In this document: positions 1,254-36,900 of the stretch, one piece after another
How the letters are laid out: each line of letters opens with the position of its first letter
How positions within the stretch are numbered: the stretch's first letter is position 1
Assembly: GCA_000092065.1 (NCBI GenBank)
Contig: CP000596.1
Length of the DNA stretch: 64,000 bases
DNA from: Ostreococcus lucimarinus
Taxonomy: Eukaryota
Reading direction: 5' to 3' (one strand)
Made by a program: the position numbers and the translations under genes
The notes under the pieces: generated by a model
Seen by the model: the letters and a program-made list of their open reading frames with translations, nothing else
Told to the model about the DNA's origin: nothing
Database searches by the model: none

Positions 1254-4200
1254 TCAGATGACGGAGCTGTAGCCGTCGACTTGGCGTGACGTCGTCGCGA
1301 CGAGCGACGTACGTTCGGACATTTCGGCGTCGGCTGGACGCGCGCGCGCGCGGAACGCGAACGCGAACAGCGCGACGCACAGCGTGAACGCGAAGGGAGT
1401 GTAAAAAATTGCGACCTTTTGACTGCCGTCGATGTCATCTTGAGGGCTCGATGATGCGAGAGATGATTTTTGTCGTGGAGAAGATCCCGACGACCCTAGT
1501 TGTGGCGTTTCGGCGGTGCTCGCGCCGACGCGCACAGGTGCGACGAATTCAAACTCAGCCGCTGGGTTGCCTGCGACGTCGGTCACTTCCGTAACAGTCA
1601 CTTTGTGATAGCCTTGTGAAAAGTATGGAAACTTCATCAACCAGTGACCACCAGCGCCATCGTTAACGCATTGAAGGACGTACTGTCTCAAGTCTTCGTT
1701 GGAAACGGCTTCGAAGGGACCCGTCGACGAGTTGCCTCGCTTGGCCGTGATCACTTGCTTCGTGCAATCAATGTCTTCCATGAAATCGACGCGTTGCGTT
1801 ACCTGTGAGCTCACATATTTGAAATCACCGACGAGCGGGTCCTTCGTATCTATCTTCACCATGAGATTTTGATCGCTCACAAATTCGTGCACTGACGGCT
1901 TTGCGAGGTGAGATCCGCCCACGCACATTGTTTTCAATCGGATATCATATTTCCCATCTTTATATCCACTCAGAAGTTTGTTGTAAGGGTCGTTTAGATC
2001 CCAGTCAAAGATGCAACCGTCTCCACCCCGCGACTCCGGGCAAAGTAAATTGAAATTCTTATTCGTGCCGGCACCGCGCTCGGCGTCTTTCGCTGTGATC
2101 CATTCGCCTCCTGATACCGAACGATATTGCACGTAGACGTAGGCGAGATTCCCATTCGTCACCAACGCTTCGGACGTGGATGCAGTTTCCTTGGGCCAGA
2201 GAGAATATCTATTCGGATTTACGACCGAGATGCTCAAAACGCTCGAATCAGACGCTGCGCTCTTCTCAAAGTAACTTGCTTCCTTGCTGAGCGTAGACGA
2301 GTGAAAAGCAACTTGAGGGCAATCTTTACTCCACGACATGGCACCGAGTGTAACACTGCTCGAGATGATCGGGCGATACATGTATTCTTCAATCATCGAC
2401 TCACACAAGCTCACCAAGGAAATCCCCAGGTACGAGCTTTCATACACTCCGTCGCTTGGCTCCACGCTCAGAAGCACGCGACTCTCGCGCACAACGCTTT
2501 GCGAATCCATACGCTCTCCAGCCAATCTTCGTAGAGGTAGGACTTCACCGAATGACCACATTTGAATACCATTGATCGAGAACTTCATTCCCTGTAGGAG
2601 TGTTCCTTGTGCTGTAGTGGTTTGCGTGAGACGAGCGATTGCGTTTGCCAACAATCTCCCTGCTCTGACGCTCATTGACTGTTCGTATGACGCTACGATG
2701 TCTTCAATCCGCGCCTTCAGGTCTTGAATGTCATCAGACTCTGACGCAAAGCATTCGTGGCTATCCGCCATGGCGTATGCTGCATTCTTTACGAACGTTG
2801 CGTTGTCCTCGTTCAACTGTGCCGCGTTATGAGCAGCCGCGATGATTTTTCCAACGCAGTCGGCGACTCCATCTACCAAACGAAGGCCCATGTTGGCCAC
2901 TTCCTTGTAGGGCGACTCATTGCTGATGAGAAGTTGGATCAAAGCGTGCTCTCCTGGGTTCAGATTCGTGTTATGCGTCGACTCCTTACCTATGGTAACG
3001 CCAGCTTCTCGGAACATCGTCCATTTTTCTCCCGGACATTGACTTCTGCCGCCCATCGTGATGAACACTGGAGATCCGAAACGTTTGTCGGAACTGACCT
3101 GGAGCACAAACTTATCCCCAAAATCTGGGTCACCTAATGAGTACATCGTGCTCATGTGTTCATACTTTGCCCAGGCAAAGGCACGACTTTTTGAAACTGA
3201 CTTGCTCATATCCGTGGTAGCACCTACATGCCCCTTGACGATGGCGATTGAACCCGCGAAGGAGTATCCGTTTTCAGCTGAGCCGTCCAGGCTGAGCGTC
3301 CATGCGTAATCTTGACCGTCGACGTTTTCGTTGGAAGAAAATATGTACTCTGTCGAAGCACCACCGCCGCTAAACGATAGTAAAATTGCTTCATCAGCGG
3401 GTCCATTCGAATCTGTGGTGGAGTAGCCGCGGGGACCCATACGCCCTGTAAACGACGCATCGACTCGTTTCGTATCGTTCATGTAAATGGATGCATCCTC
3501 TCCGAGCGTAAGATCGCTAAGATCGCTCGATTGAAGTAGTTGTGACGACACGTCTAGAGCCTGCGTTTTGCATTTTTCTGTGATGCAGGATGAAACCGTG
3601 TTGTTCAGATCTTCACGAGTGGGGCTATTCATCCCCATTGTCGTGACGAGCTCATCCGCTTCTTGAAATTGCTCGAGGAACTTCGGCTTCATCCTTTCAC
3701 TCTTTCGTGACCAGAAAACCTTGCCGACGTCTGGGGTGGCGTCGTTATCGTCGTCGTCACCGCGGAACCCAAGGTTTCCACTCAACAAGTCTGAAAATAA
3801 AGTCCCGGGATTGCTAACGTAGCCACTGATGAGCTGGGACAATCGAGATTCATCCGTCTCATCCGAGAGAATGAAGTCGTTAAGTGTGTCTATAGTACCA
3901 TCCGCGTCGCCCAAGTCCCCTGGAACGCCATGTATGTATGGACTAACTCTGTCGATTCTCTTCCAAGCAAGCTTCAACTCGTCTATTGGGGTAGAAATCG
4001 GACCGCTCGCGTCACTTATGAACGATGTTTCCATTTTCTCGGCTTCCATACCGAACGCGGATTGTTCATCCATAAAAGGAACCATGATGCGCTCCATTGC
4101 GCCGTAGTTTTTACCGTACAACACGGGAGCGCCTTCCGCAGTCGGCTCCATAGGAACCTTGTACACTGTTGGCGAAGCCCACAAAAGTGTGCGTTGCCAC

Positions 4201-7200
4201 ACGTTAATTTTGTCAGCGATGTACTGTGGCCAATTAGGCGCTTCCATTTTAGAATCATCCCCGACGATGAGGCCGCTTTCCACGACGGAAAGCAAATACC
4301 GCAAGTTTGGAATCACTTTCGCTTCAATCGAGTGTACCGTGAATATGTAGGACGTGGGTTTCCTCGGCATCCATGTGATCGCCGTCGATATCCGCAAGCA
4401 CGGTTTATCGTCTTCCCTTAGCGCAAGATCGAGCGTATCGGCTAGCCTGTAGACAAGTTCAACGCCGCCACCTAGAATCGCATCGCCCTGTCGTCCCGGG
4501 ATGGCGACGTCGGTACTTGTCCGTATGACACGATTTATCGTAGCCGTGAGATCCCAACCGACGGCGGAACTCTGAGCGACCGAAAATTCTGGTCCAGACT
4601 CCTCATGGTATGCGTCAAAATCTATCTTAAAGAGAGGCATTCCGAGCTGGAATAAAACCTCCATGCCATACCCAGCGCCGAACCCAGGTTTCGCCTCCAC
4701 TTCGAGTTCTACGCCGCCACCGCCTTCGTGTGAACTCGACACAGACGCCGCTTGTTCGTCTGAAAGCTCCACGGACATGGTCACTTCCGTGCCCATAAGA
4801 AGTTCGGCGTAAGAGTTGCCACCGGGCGGATCATGTACCGTCATGTACACCAAACCTTCGAGTGGAACAGTTGCCCAATACACGTCATCGCTTTCTTCGC
4901 CGTAGATCCCTTCGCCTCGCGGTTTCGAGCCAAGAGAGATGAGCTCTCGTTTCAACGGAACTGTCACTGTCATCGAACCATCAAATCTACCCACAGTCAG
5001 TTCGACAGATCTGCGGTAATTTCCTGAGAGCTTAGGATCTCCCGCGACAATGAGTCGATCCGTCGTCTTCTCGCCCTCATCCGTGGGGAATAAAAGTTTG
5101 TCGCTCTCCGGATCGATCTCAACGTCAAAGTCGCACAATGGTCCTCCATTGCGATCGGTATGACATGGATTTTCGGCTATATCGGTGACGCTTTGTCTGA
5201 ACATGGCCACCGTCATCCCGCCGCTCTCGGCGCTAGGCAGTGTCAAGCATTCATCGAGTGAACCATTCTCCACATGCAGTTCAAGTACTTTGGCGCTCAC
5301 AAGTTTCGGCCCCAAAGCGTAGAGCCCTTCTCCACCGAAATCATCAAAAAATGGCGATATCCCAACAAAGTGGTTGTGTCTAATGCCACCAGCTTTCACG
5401 CCATCAACGTCCCAGCAGTAATCGCCATCGTCGGTGATTACAGAAAGATCTACGAACTCTGCGCACAAATAACCGTGGTACTTGTATCTCGCCGAATACC
5501 AAGTGTGCTCAGTGCGTAATGGTACAAGCCTTTCGATCGTTGTTGGATGCTGGCGGAAGTATGGAATGATGCCGTCTACTCCGACATGACACAACGCGTT
5601 CGGATATTTCTCCTCGCGCATCGCCGTGAAATTCGCTGTGGATGGGGCCTCTTCGATCACTACCGAGTAATCCATCGCGGCGAGTGGCCACCGTCTTCCA
5701 TTCGGAACTTCTTGATATGTTGGTATAACGTCTGAGTTTTCCTTGTCGCGGTCAGGTAGAGTCCAGCCGGATACTTGAGCCGAAGTGAAGATGGCTGGTG
5801 GGTGACAGCCATTGATGGGGGTAATTTTGAAAGTCGCCCCTGTGTAAAGCTTTTCACACTCACCTTGATAGACACCCAAATCGACGTTTGCCGTCGTCGT
5901 GTCTGAGAAGAAAATGTACTTTTTCGATGATACGGCGTGGAGAGTAACTGTGGTCGGTTTACCGTCGCAGCTCCAAATTCTCGTAGCTTCCACGATGGTG
6001 GTTCCCGAATAGCAGATTTCGTGACCGGGATATTCCGCGGTTATCGTGTAGGTTTTCCCGTTTGTGACTGCGAATTCGAACCAGCCAGTCTCGTCTGTAG
6101 TGAATTGTCGCGGCGCACCAGCCTCGCTTTCATCTTTGACATAAATGCTTGCCTCAAAAAGTCCACACTCGGACAACTCGGTCCATTCTATTGGGAACAT
6201 GACGGCACCCAAAATGACCACTGTCGTATCGTCCTGCATTTTCTGCTCTACCTGATGATTATGGGTCAGCTCCAGGTTGATGACATCAATATCAGCCGTA
6301 TCCGAAAATACGGTATCACTTTCATATAGGTCACCATCGTCATCCGAAGTTCCAGCTTGCTTGACGACGTCATTGTTGTTGAATACATGCACGATTTCTG
6401 GCAGCTGCTGCGTGCTCCACAGCGCGACATCCAATCCAGGACGAGTGACGCGCGCGAACAGCGTCTGCGGATCATCTTGAACCACGTCGTGCAGTAGTGC
6501 GGCATCTAAGTCAACGAAAATCTTATTCGAGCCGGGAGATGTAGCAAGTAACGGTGTTGCATACACGGAGGTCTCATCGCCGACGACAATGGCATCGAAC
6601 TCGGCGTCTTCGAGAGGGCGACAGTGATCGATTTTTGACACAACATCACCCCCACTCTCTGCGCTGAGCTCATCATACCACTCGTTCCATCCCTCGGAAG
6701 AGTACGGAACGTGGGCTGATGTCGATCTTCGAACGATGAAATTTTCGCACGCTTTGCCAAACACTTGGCTACGCGCATCCTGGTGAGACTCGTCGGCGAT
6801 CGCAGCGCTAACACTCTGCACGGTGAACAAATCGAAGTCGTATGTAATTTTCCGCGGAGGGAATACGAGCACTGGCTCGACAAACAATGTCCGTTGAGCC
6901 AGACGATGCGCCACACTGAGGAATTCTTGTGCGTTCAGAAGTCCATCACCGTCCATATCCAACGACGAATTCCAAAGTTCTTCTGAAATTATCGCGTACC
7001 CATTGCTTGGAAAACTCGCACCTTTCTCGATGATGGCGGTCAACTCTGACTTATCGATGCCCCCGCTTCCATCTGTGTCTGTCTCGTCAAAATCGTGCAT
7101 CGGTGGTGGAGGCGATGGCGGTGGTGGCGATGGCGGCGGCGGCGATGGCGGCGGCGGCGATGGCGGCGGCGGCGACGGCGGCGGTGGCGACGGTGGCGGC

Positions 7201-10200
7201 GGCGGCGATGGCGGCGGCGGCGACGGCGGCGGCGGTGACGGTGGCGGCGACGGCGGCGGCGGCGATGGCGGCGGTGGTGATGCGATGCGCTCGACCCAGT
7301 GAACGTTTGTGAGAGAACCGGCCTTGACAGAGATATCCGCATGCAGCGGGTACTCGGGAGTCTGTTGACTGGTGTAAAAGCGAATTTCATTCTTGAAGTA
7401 CTCCACGGCTCCGGCGTCGTTGATGACGATTTGCAGCGAGTCGGACGAAGAGTAAGTCCCAGCCATCGTATACTCACGCTTGCCTTTCTCGTACACCTTG
7501 ATCTGTTTGGTATGCGTACAAAAAATCGCAAAATCAAGACTTTGATAATTCGTCGAATCCGTCGTCGACTGAGAGTTCAAACCGATCATCCTGTTGTTGT
7601 ATCCTCCGGCACAGACTGCGGAGATGCCACGCACAGAGTCAGAACCATTTCGAATAGCGCGCTGACTCACCGCACCGGCGTCCCAAGCGCCAGTCACTGC
7701 AGCCGTGCGCGTGACTTGGCCGCTTTCTGTGGATTCGACGCCGACTTGCGATACCCACGCGACATGATCGTCCGCCACCGCCTTTCCTGGCGGCGGCGGC
7801 GGCGGTGACGGTGGCGGCGGCGACGGCGGCGGCGGTGACGGTGGCGGCGGCGACGGCGGCGGCGGCGGCGACGGCGGTGGTGACGCGATGCGCTCGACCC
7901 AGTGAACGTTTGTGAGAGAACCGGCCTTGACAGAGATATCCGCATGCAGCGGGTACTCGGGAGTCTGTTGACTGGTGTAAAAGCGAATTTTATTCTTGAA
8001 GTACTCCACGGCTCCGGCGTCGTTGATGACGATTTGCAGCGAGTCGGACGAAGAGTAAGTCCCAGCCATCGTATACTTACGCTTGCCTTTCTCGTACACC
8101 TTGATCCGTTTGGTATACGTACAAAAAATCGCAAAATCAAGACTTTGATAATTCGTCGAATCCGTCGTCGACTGAGAGTTCAAACCGATCATCCTGTTGT
8201 TGTATCCTCCGGCACAGACTGCGGAGATGCCACGCACAGAGTCAGAACCATTTCGAATAGCGCGCTGACTCACCGCACCGGCGTCCCAAGCGCCAGTCAC
8301 TGCAGCCGTGCGCGTGACTTGGCCACTTTCTGTGGATTCGACGCCGACTTGCGATACCCACGCGACGCTACCAAGTATCTCGCCCGCCACCGCCTTTCCT
8401 GGCGGCGGCGGCGGCGGCGACGGCGACGGCGGCGGCGGTGACGGTGGCGGCGACGGCGGCGGCGGCGATGGCGGTGGTGGTGACGCCATGCGCTCGACCC
8501 ATTTAACATCGCTGAAGGAACCACGCATAATAAAAGCAACATCCGCGTGCAGCGGGTACTCGGGAGTCTGTTGACTGGTGTAAAAGCGAATTTCATTCTT
8601 GAAGTACTCCACGGCTCCGGCGTCGTTGATGACGACTTGCAGTGTATCGCTGTCCGTATACGCCACTGCAGCACCCTTAATTTTTTTACCACCTTCGTAC
8701 ACTTCAACTGCATCGGAGTGAAAATTGCATCTGATGCTGAAGTCCATTCGACTGGACACGGTCTCTGCCGCGGACTGCCGATTCAAGCCGATGAACTTGA
8801 GGCCGGACTCAGACCCACAACGAGCCGAGATTCCGCGCACTGAGTCCGTCAGGCCGTGGATCGACCGACGACTCACCGCACCGGCTGCGGAAAAATAATT
8901 CCACCAATTTGGAGATCGCCGCCAAACTTTTCGATTCGACGCTTTGGCTCTGCGAAGCGTCACCCAGACCACGTTGCCAACCGCCGCTTTTTCAGGCGGC
9001 GGCGGCGGCGGTGGCGACGGCGGCGGTGGCGACGGCGGCGGTGGTATGTACTGCGCAATGTTCCCCAGGAGGCGGCGCCCCCAGCGCTGCCTACCCAAGA
9101 GTGACGTCGTGGTTTCAGGAGATGACGAATCATCTTCCTTTAAGACCAATAAGACTTTACTGGGTACGTTCAGCGGGTCTGTCACGTCCGACGTTTGCAA
9201 GATGGGCTGCGTCGTCTTTTCAAAAACTTCCACTTTGTACGCCCCGATGTCAACGTGAGTTTTGATTGGCGTCATACCCGTGGAGTCTGTGATATGAACA
9301 ACAAACGATCCTTCCGAATCAGTGACCGCGCTGAAAGGGCATCGCGTCTCACCACCCAATACTCTTATTTCAGTCAAATTGACGTCTCGAACCGCCACGA
9401 CTGATACAAACTGCCCGTGCATCGCCTGCACAGTGTCGCCCCCGCCCCCCCCGCATGTAAACGTCAAACAGTCTGCGAATTCATCACTGACATCAGACGG
9501 ATCGTGGTTACATGCATATCCATAATTAGTCGTGTCTTCGGGATCGATTTCATGCACGTGCACTTTCATCGGTAAACTAAGCGTCGGACTCGCCTGTTGC
9601 CGAAATTCAAATCCCGTTACTTCAACTTTGCTCGATTCCGCACCAAACGAAATCTCGGGGAAAGTTATGTATTGATCTTGAGATGATATGAGGGTGGCGT
9701 TGAAACGTCTCCACGATTCCTCATGTATGGTGAATGATTCCGTACTGGCGTCAGTGGCGGATGTTCCGCGCAAGTCGATTGACACCGCGCGTTCACCACC
9801 CAAAGACTTCGCCCAAAACGACACCACGACAGAATCTCCAGTCAGGGCGCGCAAAGACTCGCCAGGAACGTGCACCGTGACTGAAACGCCTGCGTCCACC
9901 GATTTTACAACGTCCTCGAAACCAGGTGGAGGCGCAGTTGGGCTCGCGGTTAAAGGACTGATGGCGCTTGTCTGAACAAGCTCGAGGCGTTCGGTGAGAG
10001 TATTAAGAGTGAAATGAGCTCCGGTGAAGTAGAACGTACTTTCCGACCAAGCTGATACAGTAAATCCGACGAAAGCGGCGTCCTCTAACGTGTGCTTAAG
10101 CCTTATTTTCCTCCATTTATTCGGTTCAGCTGTAATGACGAGCGCGTCACCAACGGTCTGACGGCCTGCTGCTGTAGTTTGTTGTTCATACCCTAAAATC

Positions 10201-13162
10201 TGGAAAGTCATAATCGCCTCCTTCCCGACGGCGCGTACCCAGCATTCCAACAACACTGTATCACCAGCTTCGGCGTCTAGTCGATCAGTATTTTTCGCCC
10301 AGAGTTTCTCGTCTGCTCGCACGAGTCGGATGACATCATTCTCGTAACGAGGTGGATCAACGATCACGTCTGGATCATCGCCTGTATCGCCAGAATACCC
10401 CAGTCGGTCGGTGAGAGAACCCTCGGCAAGTTGGCGTGCCTTGATCGATTGCGGCTGTAGACATACTTGAACACTGCCTATTGACATCCAAAGACCAAGA
10501 TCGACGCGCGCGTAGCCACCCGTCGATACGACGACAGATTCACCGGTAGGTATGTGATTCCCATCGGTGAGCGTGTACGCTTGTTCATTCAAAGGGTTTG
10601 AGTATGCGTGCTTGAAAAGTGCGACATTGCTGGAAGATGATTCGACGTCGTCGCTCGGCCGTAAAGTTATCGTCGAATTCTCATTTTCATCCGCGTCTGG
10701 AGGCCTGGACCCTCGGTAATTTGCGACCTCCCCATCTATTACGATCGGGTCGTGAAAATTAGCGCATATTCGGACGTCGGGTACTGGAACAGCGGAATCA
10801 CCGGCGTACACGTAACCACCTACCTCTCCGTGCCAGGGCGTGATGAATTTGAAAGGGACAGAGTTTATACTTCCACCGGATGATGTTTTCGTCACCACCT
10901 TATACTTCCAAATCTGTCCTGGGATTGCCGCCGCCTCTCTGTCGGCGAAAAGCAACGGCGCGTACGATCGATGACAGTACGTGAGGCCACTGTCAATCAT
11001 CACCACTGACTCATAAGGTGCATCCGTCAGAGAATCCTGCATGCTTTGACGAAGAATCTCGAACCCAACGTCATTCCAGGCGGTATCACGGAAGCTGAAA
11101 GTGACTCCTACTGGATCCAGTTTTCCGTTGACGTCAATAGTAGAACCATCGTAGTACAATCCACCTCCACATTCAAACTTTGAGTAAGTTTCCTCGCGAG
11201 CGTCCGAAATGACGCCACTTAAACACACAATTCTTCGAGCTTTTGGTGCGGATGATTGACGAAGCACGCAGCGCTTGTAATGTCCACATCTTACGGTATC
11301 AATGAACATCACTTCGCGTATCACTCCGGTATACACTCGAACGTCGTCGAATTCAAAATCCACCGCGCCAAGCAGTGTAACGTCCGTCATTGACTCGAGC
11401 GCGCTCAGCGGCCAAGTTTCATCGCGCGTGTAAGTCGTATCATCGATTACTGTGGCCTTTGCGTCACTCGTTGGATCTACGTACAATGTCATGAAATTCA
11501 CCGAGTTTACGGCGAACGCGATGAGGTGCCACTCCCCGTCGCACGCAAAATCAAGTTTCACATCCTTTGAGGATGTGAAAGCGCTCGGAGGATCCACAGA
11601 CTCCTTGACCTGATGAGATGCCCGCAGTTCGACCATGCCGTCGCTCGTACGTATCTTGAGGTATACGTGGAGTCTGTGATCGTGAAGTCCCAACTGTCCT
11701 TGAAACTGAGCGACCGTCATGAGTGATTCGTCGTTGGAGGATTTGGGTTGCGAGCAACGACTTGGATCGATGCGCACCCATGTGCTCATCGCGATGTCGT
11801 GCCCAAGCGTATCTTCTTTATCAAGAGAGTATGAATAATCGTTCGTCCCAGGATCATCCACTGCTTGAAGGCAGCGAAATCCGTTGCCCCCCGAACATCC
11901 CGATATTGTGCGAGCGGATTTCGGCTGCAATCTCATCGGGACGGAAGACTGTCCGTCGACGATTGGCGCGACCGAATCAAGCGATCCGTCGTGTAAAGGG
12001 TCTTCATCAAACGTAAATGCTGCCACGAGAGAAGCGTGTTCGTCGAGAAAGTCACTCGTTGCTGGGCGAATGTCCGTGAAGGAGATGGGAAGTTGAAGCG
12101 TCGTGCCGCCGACTTCATACTCTTCAAAGCGCACATCGACGACGTCGTCGACTGTACCGTCGGCAACGTTGATCTGATTGAAGAGTATACCATCCACGTA
12201 TGCGCAGACGTAATCGCCGTTCGTTGGCTTAGGACTGTACGACCATGCAGTGGTGAGCCCGTTGAGGCCACTCACACAGCGATTCTCCGTTTGCCAGTCG
12301 AGAGTCGGATAGGTGATGCTATCGATACTGAAACTGTTCGACGGAGCTCCGCTGCACTTGACGGGTCGAACGGGGATTTCCATCACGTCGACAATAGACA
12401 CTGCCAGATCTGTGTCGTGCGCGGCGCGAAATTGGTCATTCCAAACGTTGAGAATGTACCTCGAAACGCTTTGTTCCACCAACATGGCCTGAAGTTCATT
12501 CAGTCGCAGCAGTCCGTCGCTGGGATCGACGTCGTGCCTACGAAAGATGCTTTCCTTTGTCTTGTAAATTTCGCCATCATCGCACAGCACGTTGTTGAAT
12601 TGATCGTTACTCAGCAATATGTACCGGACCAGTTCTTCAAGCCCCGAATTCTGATTCGCGCTCGCTTGGCCGGCGGCGTTGAATCCGAGAGGCAGGTGCA
12701 AATCGCAACCCTTGATAACTTCGAAAGAGTGTTGACCAACGGTTTCCGAACCTGGAACGATGCCATCGACCGTAACAAAGTGACAGTTATAAGTTATGGT
12801 GTGAGATCCAACCGAGTGCGTCCCATCCAACTCTGTGAGCGCGAGCGCCTTCGGGAAAAAATCATTCCATTTGCGACACGGTAAGTTATCCGCGTAATCC
12901 GACTCGGAACACGACTGATCGTCTCGTTTCACGCGAACATCGCATCGGAGACCAAGCGCGTGATTGCTCACGCTCTCTTCATTCACATTCAGTAAACAAT
13001 CGCTCGCTTCAGCGCACGCGGGATGATGCACCGCGACTTGGAAATCGTACGAGTACGCCGCAACCCTCTCCGTGGTGGAACCAAATCTCACTTCAATCGC
13101 AGCACCGGCACCAGGCGGCGGCGGTGGACTCGGCGGCGGCGGGCTCGGCGGCGGGCTCGGCG

Positions 13163-13202
<40 letters not shown>

Positions 13203-13569
13203 CGGACTCGGCGGCGGCGGCGGGCTCGGCGGCGGCGAACAATTCGCTATACCCTCGCAATTCTCCGTTCGTGTTTGTCCCTCATACGCTCCACAACTTC
13301 GTCCACCGTTTCGCGGCTTGACGGTGATCGTGAACGTCTGCGAGTACGTCGCCGGTCCGCAAAAAGCCGTGCAACTCCCTTGCCAAAAGCCTACACAATC
13401 CGTTTTCGGCGGCGACGGCGACGACCCCCCGTGGACCCCTCGCAGCGACGACAGCGCGCTCGCGACGACCAACCCGCGCATCATCGTTCGCGTCGCGTCC
13501 CATCGACGTCCGGCGCCATCGCGCGTCGTCGACCGCGACGGCGCGCGTCGTTCGCGAAGCTGACGCGGC

Positions 13570-13571
<2 letters not shown>
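1254..13571 (-). CDS. Giant (about 4,080-4,105 aa) single-exon cell-surface protein with a C-terminal TM anchor. N to C: signal peptide, TSP1-like Cys motif, extensin-like (S)PPPP spacers, LamG/concanavalin-like region, three tandem ~190-aa repeats, EF-hand/dockerin-like Ca-binding pair, ~2,500-aa C-terminal ectodomain. Function unknown.
   Basis: The ORF is uninterrupted for 12,318 nt on the minus strand. The probable true start is the ATG ATG at 13479-13484, giving MMRGLVVASALSSLRGVHG, which looks like a signal peptide. The TSP1-like motif is CVGFWQGSCTAFCGP...RNGGRSCGAYEG...NCEG. SPPPPSPPPP runs are encoded by GGCGGCGGCGGCGAY tracts. The LamG-like signature is FACDGEWHLIAFAVNSVNFMTLYVDPT. 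The Ca-binding loops are DTDGSGGIDKSE and DMDGDGLLNAQE. The C-terminal TM helix is VAIFYTPFAFTLCVALFAFAF, followed by a short tail. Confidence 0.8.
7040..9060 (-). repeat. In-frame tandem array of a roughly 600-bp unit (two near-identical 603-bp copies plus one or two diverged copies) inside the giant gene. Each unit encodes a ~160-aa domain plus a PPPS spacer.
   Basis: The string cgctcgacccagtgaacgtttgtgagagaaccggccttgacagagatatccgcatgcagcgggtactcgggagtctg occurs at 7291 and again at 7894, a period of 603 bp (201 codons). A diverged copy begins at 8494. The duplicated spurious ORFs in the track (MILRFFVRIPN..., MNVCERTGLD...) reflect the same repeat. Confidence 0.85.
13113..13240 (-). repeat. 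Coding G-rich 12-15-nt periodic microsatellite (GGCGGCGGCGGGCTC-like) encoding the (S)PPPP extensin-like spacer. Similar tracts lie at about 7100-7290, 7790-7890, 8395-8490 and 8990-9045.
   Basis: The periodicity is visible directly in the sequence. Read on the minus strand it gives SPPPPSPPPPPSPPPP. Confidence 0.7.
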
Positions 13572-13602
<31 letters not shown>

Positions 13603-13803: not shown

Positions 13804-14218
13804 CGCGGGGCGTTACAAAATAAACGTCTAGGCTAGTTGGAGGACGCGAGGTCGAACGGATTGTTTTCTTCGGGATTCAATCGAATTCTTCGGAATTCTT
13901 GGAGATGCGAGCTCCGCAGCGGACCTCGCGCCCTACGCCTTCGCCCGATTTCGGCGAACGAACGAACGATCGCTCGCCTTCCGGCGGCGGCGCCGACAGC
14001 CCCTCGGGACTGGCGACCACCCACCTGGGAGGAGGGAAATCCCTGACCGCGATGCGCACCATCTCGAATGCGCGCACTCGGGATGATCCACGGACCCGCG
14101 CGCGCGCATCCGAACGATGCGGTAGGGAGTTTCTTTCGACCGACGCTTTTTTTTGTTTGACTTCCGTCGCCCCCGAAGGCGCGTCGACCGCTTCCATCGT
14201 AAAATTCGCGCGCGTCCG

Positions 14219-14764
14219 CTACATCTCGCCGCACTCCGCGATCACGCACGGCAGCTTGGGCTTATTCCCGCCCCCCGTCGCCACGTTCTCCACCTTTCTA
14301 ATCACCAACATCCCGTCTCCCAGCACGCGTCCGAACACCACGTGCTTATCGTCCAACCACTCCGTCTTCGCGCACGTCACGAAGAACTGGCACCCGTTCG
14401 TGTCCGGCCCGCTGTTCGCGCTCGACAGCAACCCCGCACCCGTGTGCCTGCCGACGAACGCCTCGTCGTCGAACTTCGATCCGTATATCGACGCGCACCC
14501 CGTGCCGTCGCCGTTGACGAAGTCCCCGCCCTGAATCATGAAATCCTTGATCACGCGATGAAACGCGCACCCCTTGTACCCTCGCGGCGCGCCCTCGCGC
14601 GAGCGAAACTCCCCCGCGCACATCTGCCTGAAGTTTTCGCACGTCTTCGGCGCGACGTCGGCGAAGAGCTCGAACGTCACCCGCCCCGCGCTCGCGCCGC
14701 CGATCGTCACGTCGAAGAAAACCACCGGATTCGAGTCGACGCGCGCGCGATCGTGCCACGACAT
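14219..14764 (-). CDS. Cyclophilin-type peptidyl-prolyl cis-trans isomerase (181 aa, cytosolic type)
   Basis: The protein reads [33 protein letters not shown]...[14 protein letters not shown]...[24 protein letters not shown]. It starts at a real ATG (cat at 14762-14764). Confidence 0.9.
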
Positions 14765-14919
14765 CCTCGGCGACGACGCGCGGCGTCGCCCGCGACGCGC
14801 GCGCGCGGTCCCGGTCGCGCCTCGCGACGCGACGCGGCGATGAGTGTGGACGATTCCTCACATCACAGCGCGCGACGTCGACCGCGTCGACGCTCGGACC
14901 CTCGCGAGACCTTCTCTTT

Positions 14920-14941
14920 ATGGCCGACGACTTAGTGTTCG
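14920..14941 (+). CDS. SUI1: eIF1/SUI1 exon 1 (22-nt micro-exon encoding MADDLVF plus the first base of the next codon). The intron spans 14942-15363 (422 nt; GTGCGT donor, GAGACTGACGAG branch site at 15323-15334, CAG acceptor).
   Basis: The SUI1 homology region (…NDPFANEA…YIHIRVQQRNGRK) has no in-frame Met before an upstream stop at 15297. The only GTGCGT in the 5' flank follows ATG GCC GAC GAC TTA GTG TTC G. Splicing to CC AAC GAT... gives MADDLVFANDPFANEA..., which matches the eIF1 N-terminus (MSDLD..AFDPFADA). Confidence 0.55.
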
Positions 14942-15363
14942 GTGCGTCGACGCCACGCGCGCGGCGCGTCGCGATCGCGTCGCGGCGCGCGCGCGGCGAC
15001 GCGATCGCGACGCGCGATCGCGACCTCGAATCGCGAACGATTCTTTCGGCGTCGCGCGGTTCGCGGCGCGCGCGCGCGCGAAGGGCGCGCGCGCGCGCGC
15101 GATGGACGCGCGATCGTCGCGCGCGACGGCGAGCGGCGCGAGCGGGGACGACGCGACGCGCGCGGGACGGGAAAACGGGACGATGGAGGGATCGCGCGGC
15201 GCGAGGGCGCGCGAGACGACGAGGCGCGCGGGAAGCGCGCGGATCTCGGACGAGACGCGCGAGGGATGACGAGGGATGACGAGGGATGGGGCGCGATGAC
15301 GACGACGACGACGACGCGAACGAGAGACTGACGAGAGGCGCGCGACGAATCCGCGAGACGCAG

Positions 15364-15713
15364 CCAACGATCCCTTTGCTAACGAAGCGCTTGACTTTGG
15401 AGACGAAGAAAAGCCAAAAAAGGAAAAGAAGGAAACCGCGGACTCGGTTCAGGAGAACTACATTCACATTCGCGTGCAACAGCGTAACGGACGTAAGAGC
15501 TTGACGACGGTGCAAGGACTCAACCCGAAGATCAACAAGAAATTGGTGCTCAAGGATCTCAAGAAGAAGTTCAACTGCAACGGATGCATCGTTGAGGATC
15601 CCGATCACGGAGACATCGTTCAGCTTCAAGGAGACCAGCGTAAGCAAATCGCGACGTTCCTTCTCGAGGCGAAGATTTCTAAAAAGGCGTTGATCAAGGT
15701 GCACGGGAGTTAA
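15364..15713 (+). CDS. SUI1: eIF1/SUI1 translation initiation factor, exon 2
   Basis: The protein reads YIHIRVQQRNGRKSLTTVQGLNPKINKKLVLKDLKKKFNCNGCIVEDPDHGDIVQLQGDQRKQIATFLLEAKISKKALIKVHGS, ending at TAA 15711-15713. Confidence 0.85.
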
Positions 15714-16035
15714 AATCTCACGCGCGTGATTTCACGACGGACGCGACGAGACGTCCAAAATTTTACTTACACGTTACACGACGCAAACGCGCGACTGGGA
15801 GACGGCGACCGCCGAAAGACAGACACGTTGAGGGGGGGTAGATTTTTTACCCGCGGCGCTCGCGCCGCCGGTGTACTTCTTGTAGCTTTCTCTTAGCGTT
15901 GTCAGATACGAAATGATACGAATTGCGTGACTTTCGTTTACCAGCCAAACTTCGTCAAGGGCGCGCTCTCGCGAGACGTCGAGTTTAAAAGTTCAATCTC
16001 ACACTACACACACCGCTCGTTCGATTCGTTCGCCG

Positions 16036-16827
16036 CTATTCTTCCTCATCCGGCGACGCGGCCTCGTCTTCGGTCGCCGCCTCCGCCGCGTCGTCGCCGC
16101 GTCGTTTCGTCCCCCACGAGCGCGCCTTTTCGTTCCTCGCCTTCGCCGCGGCCCTGCGCTCGTTCGCGCCCCCCCCGACCGGCCCGCTCACGACGACGTT
16201 CTTATAATTCTCCCCGCTCGACGTCATTTTCAGAATTTTAAATCCGCACAGCTCTCCGACCACGGGCGCGTCCACCTTCCCCCCCCCCGCCGCCGCTCGC
16301 TCCGCCGTCGTCGGCGGCGCTCGACCTCGATACGCTCTCGCCGGCAAAAACGCAATCATTCCCGCGATCCCCACCGCGTACCCCCCGTTCACCGCGTTCA
16401 ATATCCTCCCTTTCACCGTCGCACCCGCGTCGCGCGCTCGCACGAGCTCCCTCCACACCCGCTCCAGCGACCGCCGTCTCGCCAGCCCCTTCACCTCCAG
16501 GTCGAGCGCGCCCGCGGGATTATTCATCCACGTCACCCTCGCCTCCACGACGTCCCCGACCCGCGGCGTCGCGTCCAGCTCGCTCAACTTGTACGTCACC
16601 GCGCCCCGGATCCCCGTCAGCGCGCTCGCGACGCCGTTCCGCGCGTCGACGGCGACTATTCTCGTCGCGATGACTTTGCCCTGCACGCACGGCATCAGCG
16701 CGTTGTGCGCCGCGTCGTCGCGCGTCGGCGTCGAGTGCGGCGCCGTGGCGTCGCGCGTCGTCGTCGTCGTCGTCGCCGCGCCGCGCCGTCCCGCGAGACG
16801 CGCGAGCGCGACGCCGCGTCGAATCAT
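16036..16827 (-). CDS. Small S1-type RNA-binding-domain protein with a probable organellar transit peptide (MIRRGVALARLAGRRGAATTTTT...)
   Basis: S1-like segments are GKVIATRIVAVDARNGVASALTGIRGAVTYKLSEL...VGDVVEARV and ATVKGRILNAVNGGYAVGIAGMIAFLPARAY, followed by an acidic/basic tail. The start is a real ATG at 16825-16827. An alternative internal start lies at 16693-16695. The rest of the 627-aa track ORF upstream is Arg-rich and was rejected. Confidence 0.5.
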   Translation of the reverse strand: MIRRGVALARLAGRRGAATTTTTTRDATAPHSTPTRDDAAHNALMPCVQGKVIATRIVAVDARNGVASALTGIRGAVTYKLSELDATPRVGDVVEARVTWMNNPAGALDLEVKGLARRRSLERVWRELVRARDAGATVKGRILNAVNGGYAVGIAGMIAFLPARAYRGRAPPTTAERAAAGGGKVDAPVVGELCGFKILKMTSSGENYKNVVVSGPVGGGANERRAAAKARNEKARSWGTKRRGDDAAEAATEDEAASPDEEE

Positions 16828-32239: not shown

Positions 32240-32297
32240 GTGCGTGCGCGAGGCGACGCGATTCGACGCGATGCGACGCGCGAGGACGGGGGGGTGG

Positions 32298-32307
32298 AAA
32301 ACCCTAA
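32298..32307. promoter_or_regulatory. Telo-box AAACCCTAAA inside the RPL30e intron
   Basis: The intron sequence ggaaaaccctaaagacgg holds 1.4 units of the CCCTAAA (TTTAGGG) telomere repeat. In plants this matches the telo-box cis-element typical of ribosomal-protein gene 5' regions and introns. Confidence 0.4.
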
Positions 32308-32362
32308 AGACGGCGACGACGCGCGAGAGACTGACGAAGACGACGAACGCGTCGCGTGAACA

Positions 32363-32469
32363 GATAACGTCGATCTCGGCACGGCGTGCGGTCGATACTA
32401 CCGCGTGTCTTGCATGTCGATCACCGATCCGGGCGACTCCGACATCGTCAAGGCGGTGCCGGAGGAGTA
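32363..32469 (+). CDS. RPL30: 60S ribosomal protein L30e, exon 2 (the 123-nt intron spans 32240-32362)
   Basis: After the splice (phase 1) the exon encodes [35 protein letters not shown], which matches the RPL30e C-terminus ([29 protein letters not shown]). The intron carries the branch motif GAGACTGACGA and a CAG acceptor. Confidence 0.85.
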
Positions 32470-33945: not shown

Positions 33946-36900
33946 ATGGGACGCGAGCGCGTCGCCGCGTCGAGCGCGTCCGCGGCGCCCGCGAGCGCGG
34001 AGCGCGCGCGACGCGCGCTCGCGGACGCGCCCGCGGCGTCCGCGCTCTCGGGGTGCGTCGACCGCGCGAGCGACGCGAGGGCGACGCGCGCGAACGAAGG
34101 CGCGCGCGAACGACGACTGACGACGCGACGACGCGCGACGACGACGCGACGCAGGTTCGGGTTCGGTGGATACGCCGGACAGGTGTCCCTGACGGCGCGC
34201 GCGGCGAGCGACGCGAGCGCGGACGCGGGAGAGGTGGACGAGGACGCGGCGCGCGCGCTGCGGCGATGCGCGCAAAAGTCGTCGACGGCGACGAAGGCGA
34301 AGGCGCTGCGAGAACTCCGCGACGCGCTGTTCGTCGACGCCGCGGACGAAGATTCGATGGAGGAAGTGGCGAAAAAGGTGAAAACGGTCGCGGGCGTGCT
34401 CGGGGTGTCGCGGGCGTGGGCGAGGGCGTACGATAAATTGGCGGGCGACGGCGACGCGGGATGTCGACGCGAGGCGGCGGCGTTGAACGGAGCGATCGCG
34501 GTGGCGGCGGGGAAGGGACTGGGGAAGATTTTGAAGAGCACGCCGATCATGTGCGCGTGGGTGCGGGGGATGTGCGATCCAAGCGCGGAGGTGCGAGAGA
34601 TGGCGATGGTGGCGTTTGAGAAGACGTTTTCGACCGATGCGCGACGCGCGGGGGCGTTGGCGCTCGCGCACGAAGTGATTTTAGACGATTTGATCGAGGC
34701 TTTGAAACGGCGCGGGCCGCAGGATATGATCTTTAAGGAAGGCTCAGAGGCTGAGCAGTACGCGCGTTTCGAGTTGAGCGCGCGCGCGGCTCTCAGGGCG
34801 GTGACGTTTACGTGTGAGCGATTGAGCGCGTTTGAGGGAGACGAGAGCGACGCCGCGGCGAGCAAGTTTAGTTATTTGCTCGATGAGTTGGCGACGTTAA
34901 AGACGCAAATTCGAGGTGAATACATGGTCATACGCCGAGATGCGTACGCGACGTTGGCGGCGATTTGTAAGCGCGCGGTCGATGACGAAATCACCCCGGC
35001 GTGGCGAGACGCGCTTCGAGGCCAAGTGCCTAAAATTGCCTCGACGAGCTTCGCTCTGATTTCGTCCGAGACCGAGCCAGGAGCGATGCGTGATATGTGG
35101 GAGCTCATACTCGGTATCGCCACTTCGCACCCCGACGCTTGGGGCGCTATAGATGTCGAAAAAACCTTCATGTCTGGCTTGCGCAAGCACTTCAAACGCG
35201 GGAGCTACGGCGCCGCGAGTGTTTCGTCGCCGTCGCTCCTTCCGCTTCTCGCGCACTTGCCCCCGAAAGCGCTTATCGAGCGCGACGCCGATGGTCGCGC
35301 CATGTCGGGATTAGTGCGCGTCATGGACGCCGTTTTTGCGGGGTGGTGTTTCTTGAGTTCGAGCGCCGTTCGCTCAAACGAGGCGCGCGATACGCTGCCG
35401 GCGATGCGCGAAGGCGTTTTATACGGCGTTCTGAAGCTCGCCCCGCTCACCGATCACGCGGAAGAGTGCGCCACGCACGTCTTGGTCGATCACGTGGTCG
35501 ATGTGTGGATGCGAGAGTTTTTAGCGCGCGGTAACGGCGCCGCGCTCGATTTGATGTGCGACGTGCTCAACGTGCTGAGCACAAAGCCGCACGCGAAGAC
35601 CGCCGTCGTGGAGGCGTGGGCGAAATTAGGAGACATCACAGAAGCGGCGTTGGACGACCCCGAAAAAGGCGAACACGCAAATGCGATGTACGCTCGACTG
35701 TTTGCATCGGGGAAATTCGCGTCGTCGTCGCAGGCTACGGCGCCATTCGCGAAGGCTGTTTTCGCGCAAGCAGTGGATGCGCCGTCGAAGCAAACCTTCG
35801 AGCGATTGGCGACCTTGGTCGAGAGTCTAGGCGTTGAGCCATTCGACGGTGCGCAACGTTTGATGGACTTCGCACTCGCGGACAACGCGCCACAAGGTTC
35901 GGGCGCGGTCGTCGCTGCGGTGTTGAAGCACGACGCGAGCTGGTGGAGCGCGGTGCTGGATGACGCGAACGCGGCGGATGAATTGGAGTCGTCTTCGCGC
36001 GTGCGAGTCGTAACGGAAGCAATCGCCGCCACGAAATCGTTCGGTGAACTCAAATGCCCGGCGCTCGATGATCTCGTTCGTCGATGCGCGAAGCGATCGA
36101 GTGATGCTTCGTGCTCGCAACTGTTAATCGCCATCTCGCAGTTTTTTGAACCGGTTTCCGCCGACGTCGCATCCGACGTCTTTGAAAGTCTCGCTTCGAG
36201 CGACCTCGGCGACGGCGCGTCGAACGCGCGTAAAGCGCTGCGCGAGTGGATACTGATACCGCCTAAAGAAGCACTGAGTATTCCGTGGTCAAATGCCGTC
36301 GGTGCACTCTTCGCACACGTGCTCTTGGAAAGTCAGCACACCGTGAAGTGCGTGATTCACGAAGCCGAGAGCGAGGGTGAAAGCGAGGACGAGGTGGAAT
36401 ACGACGAGACGAAAGTCGGAGAAGTGCAACGCGATTGGAAAGCTTTCGAGTGCGACGCAGAGAGTAATCCAGTACTGTCACCCGCGCTTCAGGCCGCGTT
36501 CACAACCGCCATCGCACGCACCGCCGCGGCGACGGCGGCGACGCAACACCCAGGTGAATCCGATTTGGTTTTGAGATTGTGGGCGCAGATGACCGCGCGA
36601 GCGCTTCGAGCGTTCCACGTCGACGATGAGACGTTTGCAAAATGCATCGTCGACGAAATGGAAAATAACGTGGACGACGATGTGACTTTTCACTGGCTGA
36701 ACGCCGTCGCGCGCGTTCTCGATTGGAGCTCGTTGTTGCGCGCGATGGATGCAGACAGGCGAAAAGAATTCACGGTCGACGCGTTAGCGCTGGCGCCGAG
36801 TGTCAATAAAGCGTTCGCGATTGCGCTGTGCGGTGATGCTGCGATGCAAACGCAAATATTCGTCTCGCTCGTCAACGCGGTGTTGGAGGCGTCGCCAGAT

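What the first reader, a model, noticed from the sequence alone, without database searches (positions are those of the whole stretch)
14920..15363. Hidden 22-nt first exon and a 422-nt 5' intron in eIF1/SUI1, inside the cyclophilin/SUI1 bidirectional promoter
The SUI1 homology has no in-frame ATG. The only GTGCGT in the 5' flank follows ATG GCC GAC GAC TTA GTG TTC G. Splicing it to the CAG acceptor at 15361-15363 restores MADDLVF-ANDPFANEA…, a good match to the eIF1 N-terminus. The intron (422 nt) is three to five times longer than the other introns here. It fills most of the space between the divergent cyclophilin start at 14764 and the SUI1 start at 14920, 155 bp apart. It may carry promoter or enhancer function (intron-mediated enhancement).
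Basis: partly seen in the sequence, partly recalled or inferred. Interest (0 to 1): 0.5.

Follow-up and report, generated by a model that had tools for sequence, protein, structure and literature searches.

The report
Missed first exon of algal eIF1
The translation factor eIF1 gene of the tiny green alga Ostreococcus lucimarinus starts with a 22-base exon followed by a 422-base ordinary intron, as public RNA assemblies confirm; this repairs a truncated reference gene model but is an ancient, already known gene structure.

Summary
The window is Ostreococcus lucimarinus CCE9901. Exon 1 is 14920-14941 and the intron is 14942-15363 (422 nt). It has the donor GTGCGTC, the branch site GACTGACG and the acceptor CGCAG. 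Exon 2 is 15364-15713. Together they encode a 123-aa eIF1.

Four independent RNA-derived public contigs are 100% identical to the window and join 14941 directly to 15364. One ends in a poly(A) tail after 15930. A Tara metatranscriptome protein reads from the 5' UTR through the same junction.

The splice signals match the published O. lucimarinus consensus. The same short first exon and phase-1 intron occur in every Ostreococcus lineage sampled (215-422 nt), in Bathycoccus, in Micromonas, and at almost the same site in a moss. The intron is therefore ancestral.

It is already annotated in O. tauri RCC4221 (XP_022840475.1, MADDLVFANDPF...). The O. lucimarinus reference holds only a 5'-truncated "partial" 86-aa model (XP_001421903.1).

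The enhancer idea gains no support. The intron interior is the least conserved part of the locus, at 73% identity against 93% at synonymous sites. It shows no conserved block, no selected fold and no Rfam family, and its CpG-rich composition is common here.

Verdict: a correct gene-model repair, ordinary biology, low interest.

The parts
14219..14764 (-). Intronless cyclophilin (PPIase H-type) gene of 181 aa, divergent neighbour of eIF1
   Evidence: Continuous ORF. Pfam PF00160, E 3.7e-46. Exact match to XP_001422030.1 of O. lucimarinus CCE9901.
14765..14919 (.). 155-bp spacer between the two start codons. It holds the shared divergent promoter region and the eIF1 5' UTR.
   Evidence: The cyclophilin-eIF1 head-to-head pairing is conserved in six Ostreococcus lineages (spacer 155-284 bp) and in Bathycoccus. 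The spacer sequence itself is poorly conserved (79% against sister lineage L053; no shared motif).
14860..14919 (+). Minimum eIF1 5' UTR seen in transcripts
   Evidence: MERC protein P0001 translates 14860-14919 in frame ahead of the AUG. The RNA contigs L015 and L013 begin matching at 14876 and 14882. The true TSS is not determined.
14920..14941 (+). eIF1 coding exon 1: 22 nt, Met-Ala-Asp-Asp-Leu-Val-Phe plus the first base of Ala8. The AUG has U at -3.
   Evidence: A 22-nt exon 1 occurs in all Ostreococcus lineages, all with T at -3.
14942..15363 (+). Phase-1 GT-AG spliceosomal intron, 422 nt, 75.6% GC
   Evidence: Absent from four RNA contigs that are otherwise 100% identical. Composition.
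14942..14948 (+). 5' splice site GTGCGTC
   Evidence: Matches 6 of 7 positions of the published O. lucimarinus consensus GTGCGTG (PMC2483917). Unique in the 5' flank.
14948..15014 (+). CG-rich palindromic and tandem repeat forming a long hairpin
   Evidence: TRF period 30, 2.2 copies. Self inverted match of 96% over 52 nt. Only sub-threshold miRNA-like Rfam hits. Metagenome scaffolds carry N gaps or a 55-nt collapse here.
15260..15316 (+). Tandem repeats CGAGGGATGA x2.9 and (CGA)n x7.7
15326..15333 (+). Branch site GACTGACG. The branch A is at 15331, 32 nt from the 3' splice site.
   Evidence: Exact match to the extended consensus found in 66.5% of confirmed non-chromosome-2 introns. The published branch-to-AG distance is 20-35 nt (PMC2483917). 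Present in all Ostreococcus lineages.
15359..15363 (+). 3' splice site CGCAG
   Evidence: Matches the published CGCAG preference (PMC2483917). Junction seen in RNA.
15364..15713 (+). eIF1 coding exon 2, including the TAA stop at 15711-15713
   Evidence: Pfam SUI1 PF01253, E 3.4e-25, residues 38-112. Human eIF1 4kzx_l, E 8.9e-30.
15714..15930 (+). 3' UTR, with the poly(A) site at about 15930
   Evidence: L012 matches through 15930 and then carries 23 A not present in the genome.

Best explanation
This is the complete eIF1 (SUI1) gene of Ostreococcus lucimarinus CCE9901.

Shown:
- Transcription starts in the short spacer shared with the divergent cyclophilin gene.
- The AUG at 14920 opens a 22-nt coding exon.
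- A canonical U2-type GT-AG intron of 422 nt (14942-15363, phase 1) is removed by the spliceosome. It uses the strong, species-typical signals GTGCGTC, GACTGACG and CGCAG.
- The mRNA is polyadenylated near 15930 and encodes a 123-aa eIF1.
- Splicing is obligatory for making the protein. Exon 2 has no Met codon, and the unspliced RNA has an in-frame TGA at 15297.
- The intron is an ancestral green-lineage intron.

Inferred:
- It persists probably because 5'-most introns of highly expressed genes are the ones retained in intron-poor genomes.
- Its unusual length comes from fast-evolving CG-rich repeats and palindromes, not from a conserved embedded element.
- The U at -3 of the AUG fits the conserved poor-context start codon through which eIF1 limits its own translation in other eukaryotes.
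For: - RNA: L012-L015 join 14941 to 15364 at 100% identity, and L012 has a poly(A) tail. MERC protein P0001 (ERR1712205_13795) reads from the 5' UTR through exon 1 into exon 2.
- Signals: donor, branch site, branch-to-AG distance of 32 nt and acceptor all match the EST-derived O. lucimarinus consensus (PMC2483917).
- Orthology: O. tauri XP_022840475.1 and O. mediterraneus MMETSP transcripts start MADDLVFANDPF. The O. tauri genome has ATGGCCGACGACCTCGTTTTTG|GTGCGT 250 nt upstream of exon 2.
- Survey: 24 of the 25 Ostreococcus loci returned by the metagenome scan carry the 22-nt exon followed by an intron of 215-412 nt. The 25th, L108, is an intron-free RNA contig.
- Deeper homologues: Bathycoccus (25-nt exon, 362-nt intron), Micromonas pusilla (25 nt, 297 nt, annotated) and Physcomitrium (40 nt, 285 nt) all have a phase-1 intron 0-2 codons before the DPF motif.
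- Family: Pfam SUI1 and PDB eIF1 hits.
- Repeat content of the intron.
- Rapid divergence of the interior.
- Start context: -3 is T in all Ostreococcus lineages and in Bathycoccus. It is a purine in 19 of 23 crude long-ORF starts in this window. The eIF1 AUG is in poor context in most eukaryotes, and U is the least favourable base at -3 (PMC3326321).
- O. lucimarinus ESTs show more and longer introns in highly expressed genes (PMC2367439).
Against: Nothing contradicts the gene model.

- The reasons given for retention and for length are inferences. No expression measurement was possible.
- The TSS is only bracketed. Two RNA contigs (L012, L014) run on through the spacer into cyclophilin. Some transcripts may therefore start upstream of the uATG at 14840, or the two divergent transcripts overlap and were merged by the assembler.
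- Autoregulation through the weak AUG context is carried over from yeast and human work and was not tested in algae.
- Micromonas pusilla has G at -3, so the weak context is not universal in the order.
Confidence: 0.95

Rival explanations
1. The intron acts as a promoter-proximal enhancer (intron-mediated enhancement) for eIF1, and perhaps for the divergent cyclophilin gene. This would explain why it is long and retained.
For: - It lies about 80 nt from the apparent 5' end of the mRNA. That is the position where enhancing introns act in plants (general knowledge).
- An intron at this site is retained in all Mamiellales sampled, while the second eIF1 intron was lost in O. lucimarinus, O. tauri and O. 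mediterraneus.
- It is at least 215 nt in every lineage, about twice the species median.
- Intron presence and length correlate weakly with expression in O. lucimarinus (PMC2367439).
Against: - The interior is the least conserved segment of the locus: 73% identity against about 93% at third codon positions and 94% in the 3' UTR.
- No conserved block exists among eight lineages.
- Base composition changes completely in Bathycoccus, at 37% GC.
- CpG-rich tracts of this kind are common in the window.
- The soybean EIF1 promoter worked equally well with and without its first intron (PMC9590564).
- Retention of 5' introns is also expected from 3'-biased intron loss without any function.
Confidence: 0.12
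2. eIF1 is made from a different first exon or from a non-AUG start, and the 14920 exon is a chance match.
For: Before RNA evidence was found, exon 2 extends open upstream to 15300. O. tauri strain RCC1115 is annotated with an in-intron ATG (OUS45446.1, MTDDARGAA...).
Against: - Four RNA contigs and one metatranscriptome protein show the 14941|15364 junction.
- In O. lucimarinus there is no ATG between the in-frame TGA at 15297 and exon 2.
- The RCC1115 ATG overlaps the branch site in gATGACTGAC.
- The exon 1 peptide MADDLVF is identical across all Ostreococcus lineages sampled.
Confidence: 0.01
3. The intron hosts a functional non-coding RNA (snoRNA, miRNA-like hairpin) or a selected RNA structure that brings the 5' splice site and branch site together, as in long yeast ribosomal-protein introns.
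For: - A near-perfect hairpin lies at about 14961-15018 and gives sub-threshold miRNA-family hits. It shows a 96% inverted self-match.
- The predicted fold shortens the path from 5' splice site to branch site from 384 nt to 23 steps.
Against: - All Rfam hits are far below the gathering scores (bits 19-31 against 61-268).
- Folding energy is no better than for dinucleotide shuffles (z = -1.06). Shuffles shorten the path similarly (28.8 +/- 6.2). Other lineages show no consistent signal.
- The hairpin region is missing in L058 and differs in sister lineage L053.
Confidence: 0.03
4. The intron is a copy of a mobile introner element, like those of Micromonas.
For: It is a long, repeat-rich intron in a member of the Mamiellales.
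Against: - No second copy exists in the 64-kb window. The only matches are 71-76% identical and fall in other CG-rich tracts.
- The intron position and phase are shared with Bathycoccus, Micromonas and a moss. It is therefore old, not a recent insertion.
Confidence: 0.01

Closest known systems
O. tauri RCC4221 eIF1 gene model (XP_022840475.1 / CEG00609.1, 127 aa)
   Same: The first 20 residues (MADDLVFANDPFANEALDFG) are identical. It shares the 22-nt first exon, the GTGCGT donor, the GACTGACG branch site, the phase-1 position and the divergent cyclophilin neighbour.
   Different: The intron is 256 nt rather than 422 nt, with no alignable interior. In O. lucimarinus the reference model is only a 5'-truncated "partial" 86-aa protein (XP_001421903.1).
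Canonical non-chromosome-2 introns of O. lucimarinus (Irimia and Roy 2008, PMC2483917)
   Same: Donor GTGCGTG-type, branch site GACTGACG, branch-to-AG distance within 20-35 nt, and CGCAG acceptor.
   Different: Its length of 422 nt compares with a median of 111 and a mean of 168 nt for predicted introns of the species.
Long 5'-proximal introns of highly expressed translation genes in intron-poor yeasts (ribosomal protein genes of S. cerevisiae)
   Same: Both genomes are intron-poor, with strict splice signals. In both, the intron sits just after a very short first coding exon in a translation-machinery gene and is longer than the genome's typical intron. This parallel rests on general knowledge; the yeast comparison is also drawn in PMC2367439.
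   Different: No evidence here for a selected intron structure or for regulation. The lineage and the signal consensus also differ (ACTGAC here, ACTAAC in yeast).
eIF1 translational autoregulation through a poor-context AUG (Ivanov et al. 2010, as cited in PMC3326321)
   Same: U at -3 of the only in-frame AUG, conserved across Ostreococcus and Bathycoccus.
   Different: Not tested in any alga. +4 is the favourable G here. Micromonas pusilla has G at -3.
Plant eIF1 leader introns used in expression cassettes (soybean EIF1, PMC9590564)
   Same: Both are large 5'-proximal introns in an eIF1 gene with strong constitutive expression.
   Different: The soybean intron lies in the 5' UTR, and its removal did not reduce reporter activity. 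The algal intron splits codon 8.

Membership tests
eIF1 / SUI1 translation initiation factor | SUI1 domain (Pfam PF01253) above the gathering score | tested here: met
   88.7 bits against a cut-off of 25.5, residues 38-112.
eIF1 / SUI1 translation initiation factor | Close sequence similarity to structurally characterised eIF1 across the whole domain | tested here: met
   Human eIF1 4kzx_l E 8.9e-30. Yeast eIF1 2ogh_A E 2.7e-27.
eIF1 / SUI1 translation initiation factor | Short flexible N-terminal tail with the DPF(A) motif, as in orthologues | tested here: met
   The motif ANDPFANEA is present. The first 20 residues equal those of O. tauri XP_022840475.1.
eIF1 / SUI1 translation initiation factor | Function in start-codon selection | not testable with these tools
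   Inferred from homology only.
U2-type GT-AG spliceosomal intron (O. lucimarinus non-chromosome-2 class) | Precise removal from mature RNA | tested here: met
   L012-L015 lack 14942-15363 and are otherwise 100% identical. L012 has a poly(A) tail.
U2-type GT-AG spliceosomal intron (O. lucimarinus non-chromosome-2 class) | 5' splice site GTGCGTG | tested here: met
   GTGCGTC matches 6 of 7 positions.
U2-type GT-AG spliceosomal intron (O. lucimarinus non-chromosome-2 class) | Branch site (G)ACTGAC(G) 20-35 nt from the AG | tested here: met
   GACTGACG at 15326-15333. The branch A is 32 nt from the 3' splice site.
U2-type GT-AG spliceosomal intron (O. lucimarinus non-chromosome-2 class) | Acceptor preference CGCAG | tested here: met
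   CGCAG at 15359-15363.
Intron-mediated enhancement (IME) intron | Position close to the transcription start | tested here: met
   The intron starts no more than about 82 nt from the most upstream transcript evidence at 14860.
Intron-mediated enhancement (IME) intron | Intron-dependent increase in mRNA or protein | not testable with these tools
   Needs reporter or knock-in experiments.
Intron-mediated enhancement (IME) intron | Sequence constraint on the intron interior | tested here: not met
   73% identity against about 93% at synonymous sites in sister lineage L053. No conserved block. Redundant, dispersed signals would escape this test.
Bidirectional (head-to-head) gene pair | Divergent genes with start codons less than 1 kb apart | tested here: met
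   155 bp between 14764 and 14920.
Bidirectional (head-to-head) gene pair | Conserved pairing across species | tested here: met
   Cyclophilin-eIF1 pairing in six Ostreococcus lineages and in Bathycoccus. Not found in Micromonas pusilla.
Bidirectional (head-to-head) gene pair | Shared regulatory element or co-expression | not testable with these tools
   No conserved motif in the spacer alignment. No expression data.
Intron-hosted ncRNA (snoRNA / miRNA) | Match to a curated RNA family, or a conserved structured element | tested here: not met
   Only sub-threshold Rfam hits. Fold z = -1.06. Not conserved.
Introner element (Micromonas-type repeated intron) | Multiple near-identical copies in other introns | tested here: not met
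   No copy elsewhere in the 64-kb window. The position is ancient. The whole genome was not searched.

The most novel reading that the evidence does not exclude
The conserved distance of 22-25 nt between the AUG and the first exon junction in Mamiellales might matter. It would place the exon-junction complex, deposited about 24 nt upstream of a junction, directly on the weak-context start codon. Splicing of this intron could then set how efficiently the poor AUG of eIF1 is recognised, coupling splicing to eIF1 autoregulation. My evidence neither supports nor excludes this. It rests only on the conserved exon-1 length (22 nt in all Ostreococcus, 25 nt in Bathycoccus and Micromonas, but 40 nt in moss) and on the conserved U at -3.
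Probability: 0.04. Interest if true: 0.55.

Novelty: already known. Interest (0 to 1): 0.15.

Why it matters
The practical value is annotation. The O. lucimarinus CCE9901 reference lists this essential initiation factor only as an 86-aa "predicted protein, partial". One O. tauri strain annotation starts the protein at an ATG that is really part of the intron's branch site. The corrected 123-aa model, its poly(A) site and the splice signals can be transferred directly.

Biologically it is one more example of known patterns. An ancestral 5' intron is retained in a highly expressed translation gene of an intron-poor genome. The eIF1 start codon is in weak context. It opens no new question by itself.

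Tried and rejected
- Rfam scan of 14600-15900 at a permissive E-value gave only sub-threshold miRNA and SymR hits on the CG palindrome.
- RNA folding of ten orthologous introns, with dinucleotide shuffles and a path length from 5' splice site to branch site, gave no consistent excess of stability or shortening.
- Multiple alignment of eight Ostreococcus introns and of the promoter spacers showed nothing conserved except the splice signals and the ATATATG start context.
- I asked whether contigs L002-L006 show a lineage that lost the intron. They do not. Genomic contigs of the same lineage (L051, L080, L105) carry a 215-218-nt intron 1 plus a second intron. L002-L006 are therefore spliced RNA assemblies.
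- Apparent intron length differences among O. lucimarinus metagenome scaffolds (474 and 522 nt) are runs of N in the palindrome, not real polymorphism.
- A look-up of the NCBI gene table around cyclophilin returned only metagenome contigs with prokaryote-style gene calls. The reference model was found through the cluster look-up instead.
- The introner-element idea was rejected.
- A pattern scan for other introns in the window gave several candidates, of which only the RPL30 intron was verified. The others are unverified.

Full report
**What is in the sequence**

Reading 14000-16500 and splicing in silico confirms every coordinate of the finding.
- ATGGCCGACGACTTAGTGTTCG occupies 14920-14941.
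- The next bases are GTGCGTC.
- The segment 14942-15363 is 422 nt and ends in CGCAG.
- Joining 14941 to 15364 gives a 372-nt ORF plus TAA (15711-15713). It encodes MADDLVFANDPFANEALDFGDEEK...KVHGS, 123 aa.

Exon 2 contains no methionine codon. The frame is closed upstream by a TGA at 15297-15299. Within 14765-15363 the only GTGCGT, and the only GTRNGY-like donor, is the one at 14942. It is also the only ATG...GT combination with a consensus donor that joins in frame.

On the other strand a continuous 181-aa cyclophilin ORF starts at 14764 (Pfam PF00160). This is 155 bp from the eIF1 ATG.

**Which organism and what the databases hold**

The cyclophilin is an exact match to XP_001422030.1 of Ostreococcus lucimarinus CCE9901. 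The window is 100% identical to contigs of about 428 kb from several samples.

The spliced 123-aa protein exists in the protein collection only from unnamed sources: Logan assemblies, one JGI contig and the Tara metatranscriptome catalogue.

The reference annotation of CCE9901 has only XP_001421903.1, "predicted protein, partial". It is 86 aa and begins at ENYIHIRV. So the annotators saw the SUI1 domain but not the start.

**RNA evidence**

Looking up the exact 123-aa protein returned four Logan contigs from four sequencing runs. Aligned to the window, all are 100% identical, stop at 14941 and resume at 15363/15364.
- L012 continues to 15930 and then has 23 A that the genome lacks. It therefore derives from polyadenylated mRNA and marks the poly(A) site.
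- The MERC protein P0001 (ERR1712205_13795) reads TSQRATSTASTLGPSRDLLF-MADDLVF-ANDPF. That is the in-frame translation of 14860-14919 followed by exon 1 and exon 2.

L012 and L014 also run upstream through the whole spacer into the cyclophilin gene. L013 and L015 begin matching at 14882 and 14876. The TSS is therefore only bracketed. The two divergent transcripts either overlap or were merged by the assembler. Overlapping head-to-head transcripts were reported for 8.9% of O. lucimarinus EST clusters (PMC2367439).

**Splice signals**

Irimia and Roy (PMC2483917) derived a consensus for EST-confirmed O. lucimarinus introns outside chromosome 2:
- Donor GTGCGTG.
- Branch site ACTGAC in 87%, extended to GACTGACG in 66.5%.
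- Branch-to-AG distance of about 20-35 nt.
- Acceptor preference CGCAG.

This intron has GTGCGTC, GACTGACG (15326-15333, branch A 32 nt from the 3' end) and CGCAG. Apart from its length it is a textbook member of that class.

The same paper gives a median of 111 nt and a mean of 168 nt for predicted introns of the species. In this window I could verify one other intron, in RPL30 (32240-32363, 124 nt). The Pfam L7Ae/L30e match runs unbroken across its junction. "Three to five times longer" is therefore a fair description.

**Comparative evidence**

O. tauri has ATGGCCGACGACCTCGTTTTTG|GTGCGT about 250 nt upstream of exon 2, giving a 256-nt intron.
- The O. tauri RCC4221 reference protein XP_022840475.1 begins MADDLVFANDPF. 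The structure is therefore already annotated there.
- The RCC1115 model OUS45446.1 (MTDDARGAA...) instead starts at an ATG that overlaps the branch site gATGACTGAC. It is probably wrong.
- O. mediterraneus MMETSP transcripts give MADDLVFANDPF, and its genome has a 384-nt intron.

One scan of metagenome contigs with a degenerate exon-1 pattern returned 25 Ostreococcus eIF1 loci.
- All 24 genomic loci have the 22-nt exon followed by GT(G/A)CGT, a GACTGACG branch site and an intron of 215-412 nt, depending on lineage.
- The one intron-free hit (L108, the same contig as L002) belongs to a lineage whose genomic contigs (L051, L080, L105) do carry the intron. L002-L006 are therefore spliced RNA.

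Deeper homologues carry a phase-1 intron at nearly the same site:
- Bathycoccus has a 25-nt exon and a 362-nt phase-1 intron one codon before DPF.
- Micromonas pusilla CCMP1545 has a 25-nt exon and a 297-nt phase-1 intron, correctly annotated.
- The moss Physcomitrium has a 40-nt first coding exon and a 285-nt phase-1 intron, in the D codon of DPFA.

The intron is therefore ancestral in the green lineage.

A second, phase-0 intron (TTxQ|G) survives in Micromonas, a pedinophyte and two Ostreococcus lineages. It has been lost in O. lucimarinus, O. tauri and O. mediterraneus. Only the 5' intron is universally kept.

**Does the intron carry regulatory information?**

The tests available say there is no sign of it.
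- Against a sister lineage (L053) whose eIF1 differs by one residue, identities are as follows:

| Segment | Identity |
|---|---|
| Cyclophilin CDS | 96.3% |
| Exon 2 | 97.4% |
| Third codon positions | about 93% |
| 3' UTR | 93.7% |
| Spacer | 79.4% |
| Intron | 73.0%, plus 28 gap columns |

- Among eight lineages only the donor, branch site and acceptor align. The rest is CG repeats and (GAC)n runs in different places.
- The interior of the O. lucimarinus intron is made of tandem and palindromic repeats.
- The palindrome at 14948-15014 is where metagenome scaffolds break or collapse.
- Folding energy is not different from dinucleotide shuffles (z = -1.06). The shortening of the path from 5' splice site to branch site is matched by shuffles.
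- Rfam gives only sub-threshold hits on the palindrome.
- CpG-rich tracts of equal density and length occur about a dozen times in the window.
- There is no second copy of the intron in the window, so it is not an introner element.
- In soybean, an EIF1 promoter reporter gave similar activity with or without its (5' UTR) first intron (PMC9590564).

None of this excludes a generic, sequence-independent benefit of splicing close to the promoter. That remains an inference. It is consistent with the weak positive correlation of intron presence and length with expression in O. lucimarinus ESTs (PMC2367439).

The intron lies downstream of the eIF1 ATG, not between the two start codons. The promoter for both genes must fit in the 155-bp spacer. 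At least the last 60 bp of that spacer are eIF1 5' UTR.

**An additional point that supports 14920 as the true start**

The base at -3 is U in O. lucimarinus (cTTTATGG). It is also U in every other Ostreococcus lineage and in Bathycoccus (ATATATGG). Crude first-ATG models of 23 long ORFs in this window have a purine at -3 in 19 cases.

The eIF1 start codon is in poor context in most eukaryotes, and it is "often the only in-frame AUG". This is the basis of eIF1 translational autoregulation, and U is the least favourable base at -3 (PMC3326321). The algal gene fits this pattern. The regulation itself is untested here, and Micromonas pusilla has G at -3.

**Verdict**

The gene-model interpretation is confirmed by RNA and by orthologues. 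The enhancer speculation is unsupported.

What is there is the ordinary, ancestral two-exon eIF1 gene of O. lucimarinus, with an unusually long but unconstrained repeat-filled intron. The structure is already annotated in O. tauri and Micromonas. The useful outcome is a corrected model for a gene that the CCE9901 reference lists only as a partial protein.

Interest is low, at 0.15.

Noticed in passing
L001:2751-3028 (O. tauri RCC1115, KZ155790.1): The strain's eIF1 model OUS45446.1 (129 aa, MTDDARGAA...) starts at an ATG that overlaps the intron branch site gATGACTGAC. The conserved 22-nt exon 1 and GTGCGT donor lie 250 nt upstream. The RCC4221 model XP_022840475.1 has the spliced N-terminus, so the RCC1115 model is probably wrong.
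   Followed up: yes
window 14840-14935 (+): An upstream ATG at 14840 opens a 31-codon ORF that ends at 14935, overlapping the eIF1 AUG out of frame. It would act as a uORF only in transcripts that start upstream of 14840. Most transcript evidence starts at 14860-14882, but two RNA contigs run through it.
   Followed up: partly
window 14948-15014; L022, L029, L058: The CG-rich palindrome near the 5' end of the intron is replaced by runs of N in two metagenome scaffolds and by a 55-nt deletion in a third. This is probably an assembly or sequencing failure at a strong hairpin rather than a real polymorphism.
   Followed up: partly
L049, L051, L073, L080 and related loci; L018:2972-3134; L126:1184-1778: A second, phase-0 eIF1 intron at TTxQ|G is present in two Ostreococcus lineages, in Micromonas pusilla and in a pedinophyte. 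It is absent in O. lucimarinus, O. tauri and O. mediterraneus. This shows differential intron loss within the genus, with the 5' intron always kept.
   Followed up: partly
window 32240-32363 (+): A 124-nt GTGCGT...GACTGAC...AG intron splits a ribosomal protein L30e gene. The Pfam match is continuous across the junction.
   Followed up: yes
window 34053-34154 (+), 9255-9529 (+), 55865-56138 (+), 5732-5863 (-): Further candidate introns with consensus donor and branch site (102, 275, 274 and 132 nt). None was verified.
   Followed up: no
window 1257-13574 (-): A very large ORF of about 4100 codons lies in the lower-GC first 13 kb of the window. It has internally repeated segments (for example VCAGGYNNRMIGLNSQSTTDSTNYQSLDFAIFC, seen twice) and no Pfam hit on record in the neighbouring gene tables.
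   Followed up: no
P0002 (MERC) versus window 15534-15560: A metatranscriptome protein variant lacks the nine residues KLVLKDLKK, between the KINKK and KKKFN motifs. It is likely a protein-space assembly slip at the lysine repeats rather than a splice variant.
   Followed up: no
P0142 (MMETSP Transcript_5055, O. mediterraneus); L016:2470-2513: Intron-retaining transcripts occur in an O. mediterraneus culture transcriptome. They give an ORF MTDACFFIVSLSRA-ANDPF that again starts at an ATG next to the branch site. In O. lucimarinus the equivalent reading frame is closed by TGA at 15297.
   Followed up: partly
window 14219-15713; L001, L016, L020, L049, L051, L073: The head-to-head cyclophilin H - eIF1 gene pair is conserved across Ostreococcus lineages and Bathycoccus (spacers 155-324 bp, shortest in O. 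lucimarinus). It is not conserved in Micromonas pusilla.
   Followed up: partly
window 13877-14197 (-) and 14844-15269 (+): Prokaryote-style gene callers on metagenome contigs place spurious ORFs here (106 aa downstream of cyclophilin; 141 aa across the spacer and intron). The 141-aa call is an artefact of the open GC-rich intron.
   Followed up: partly
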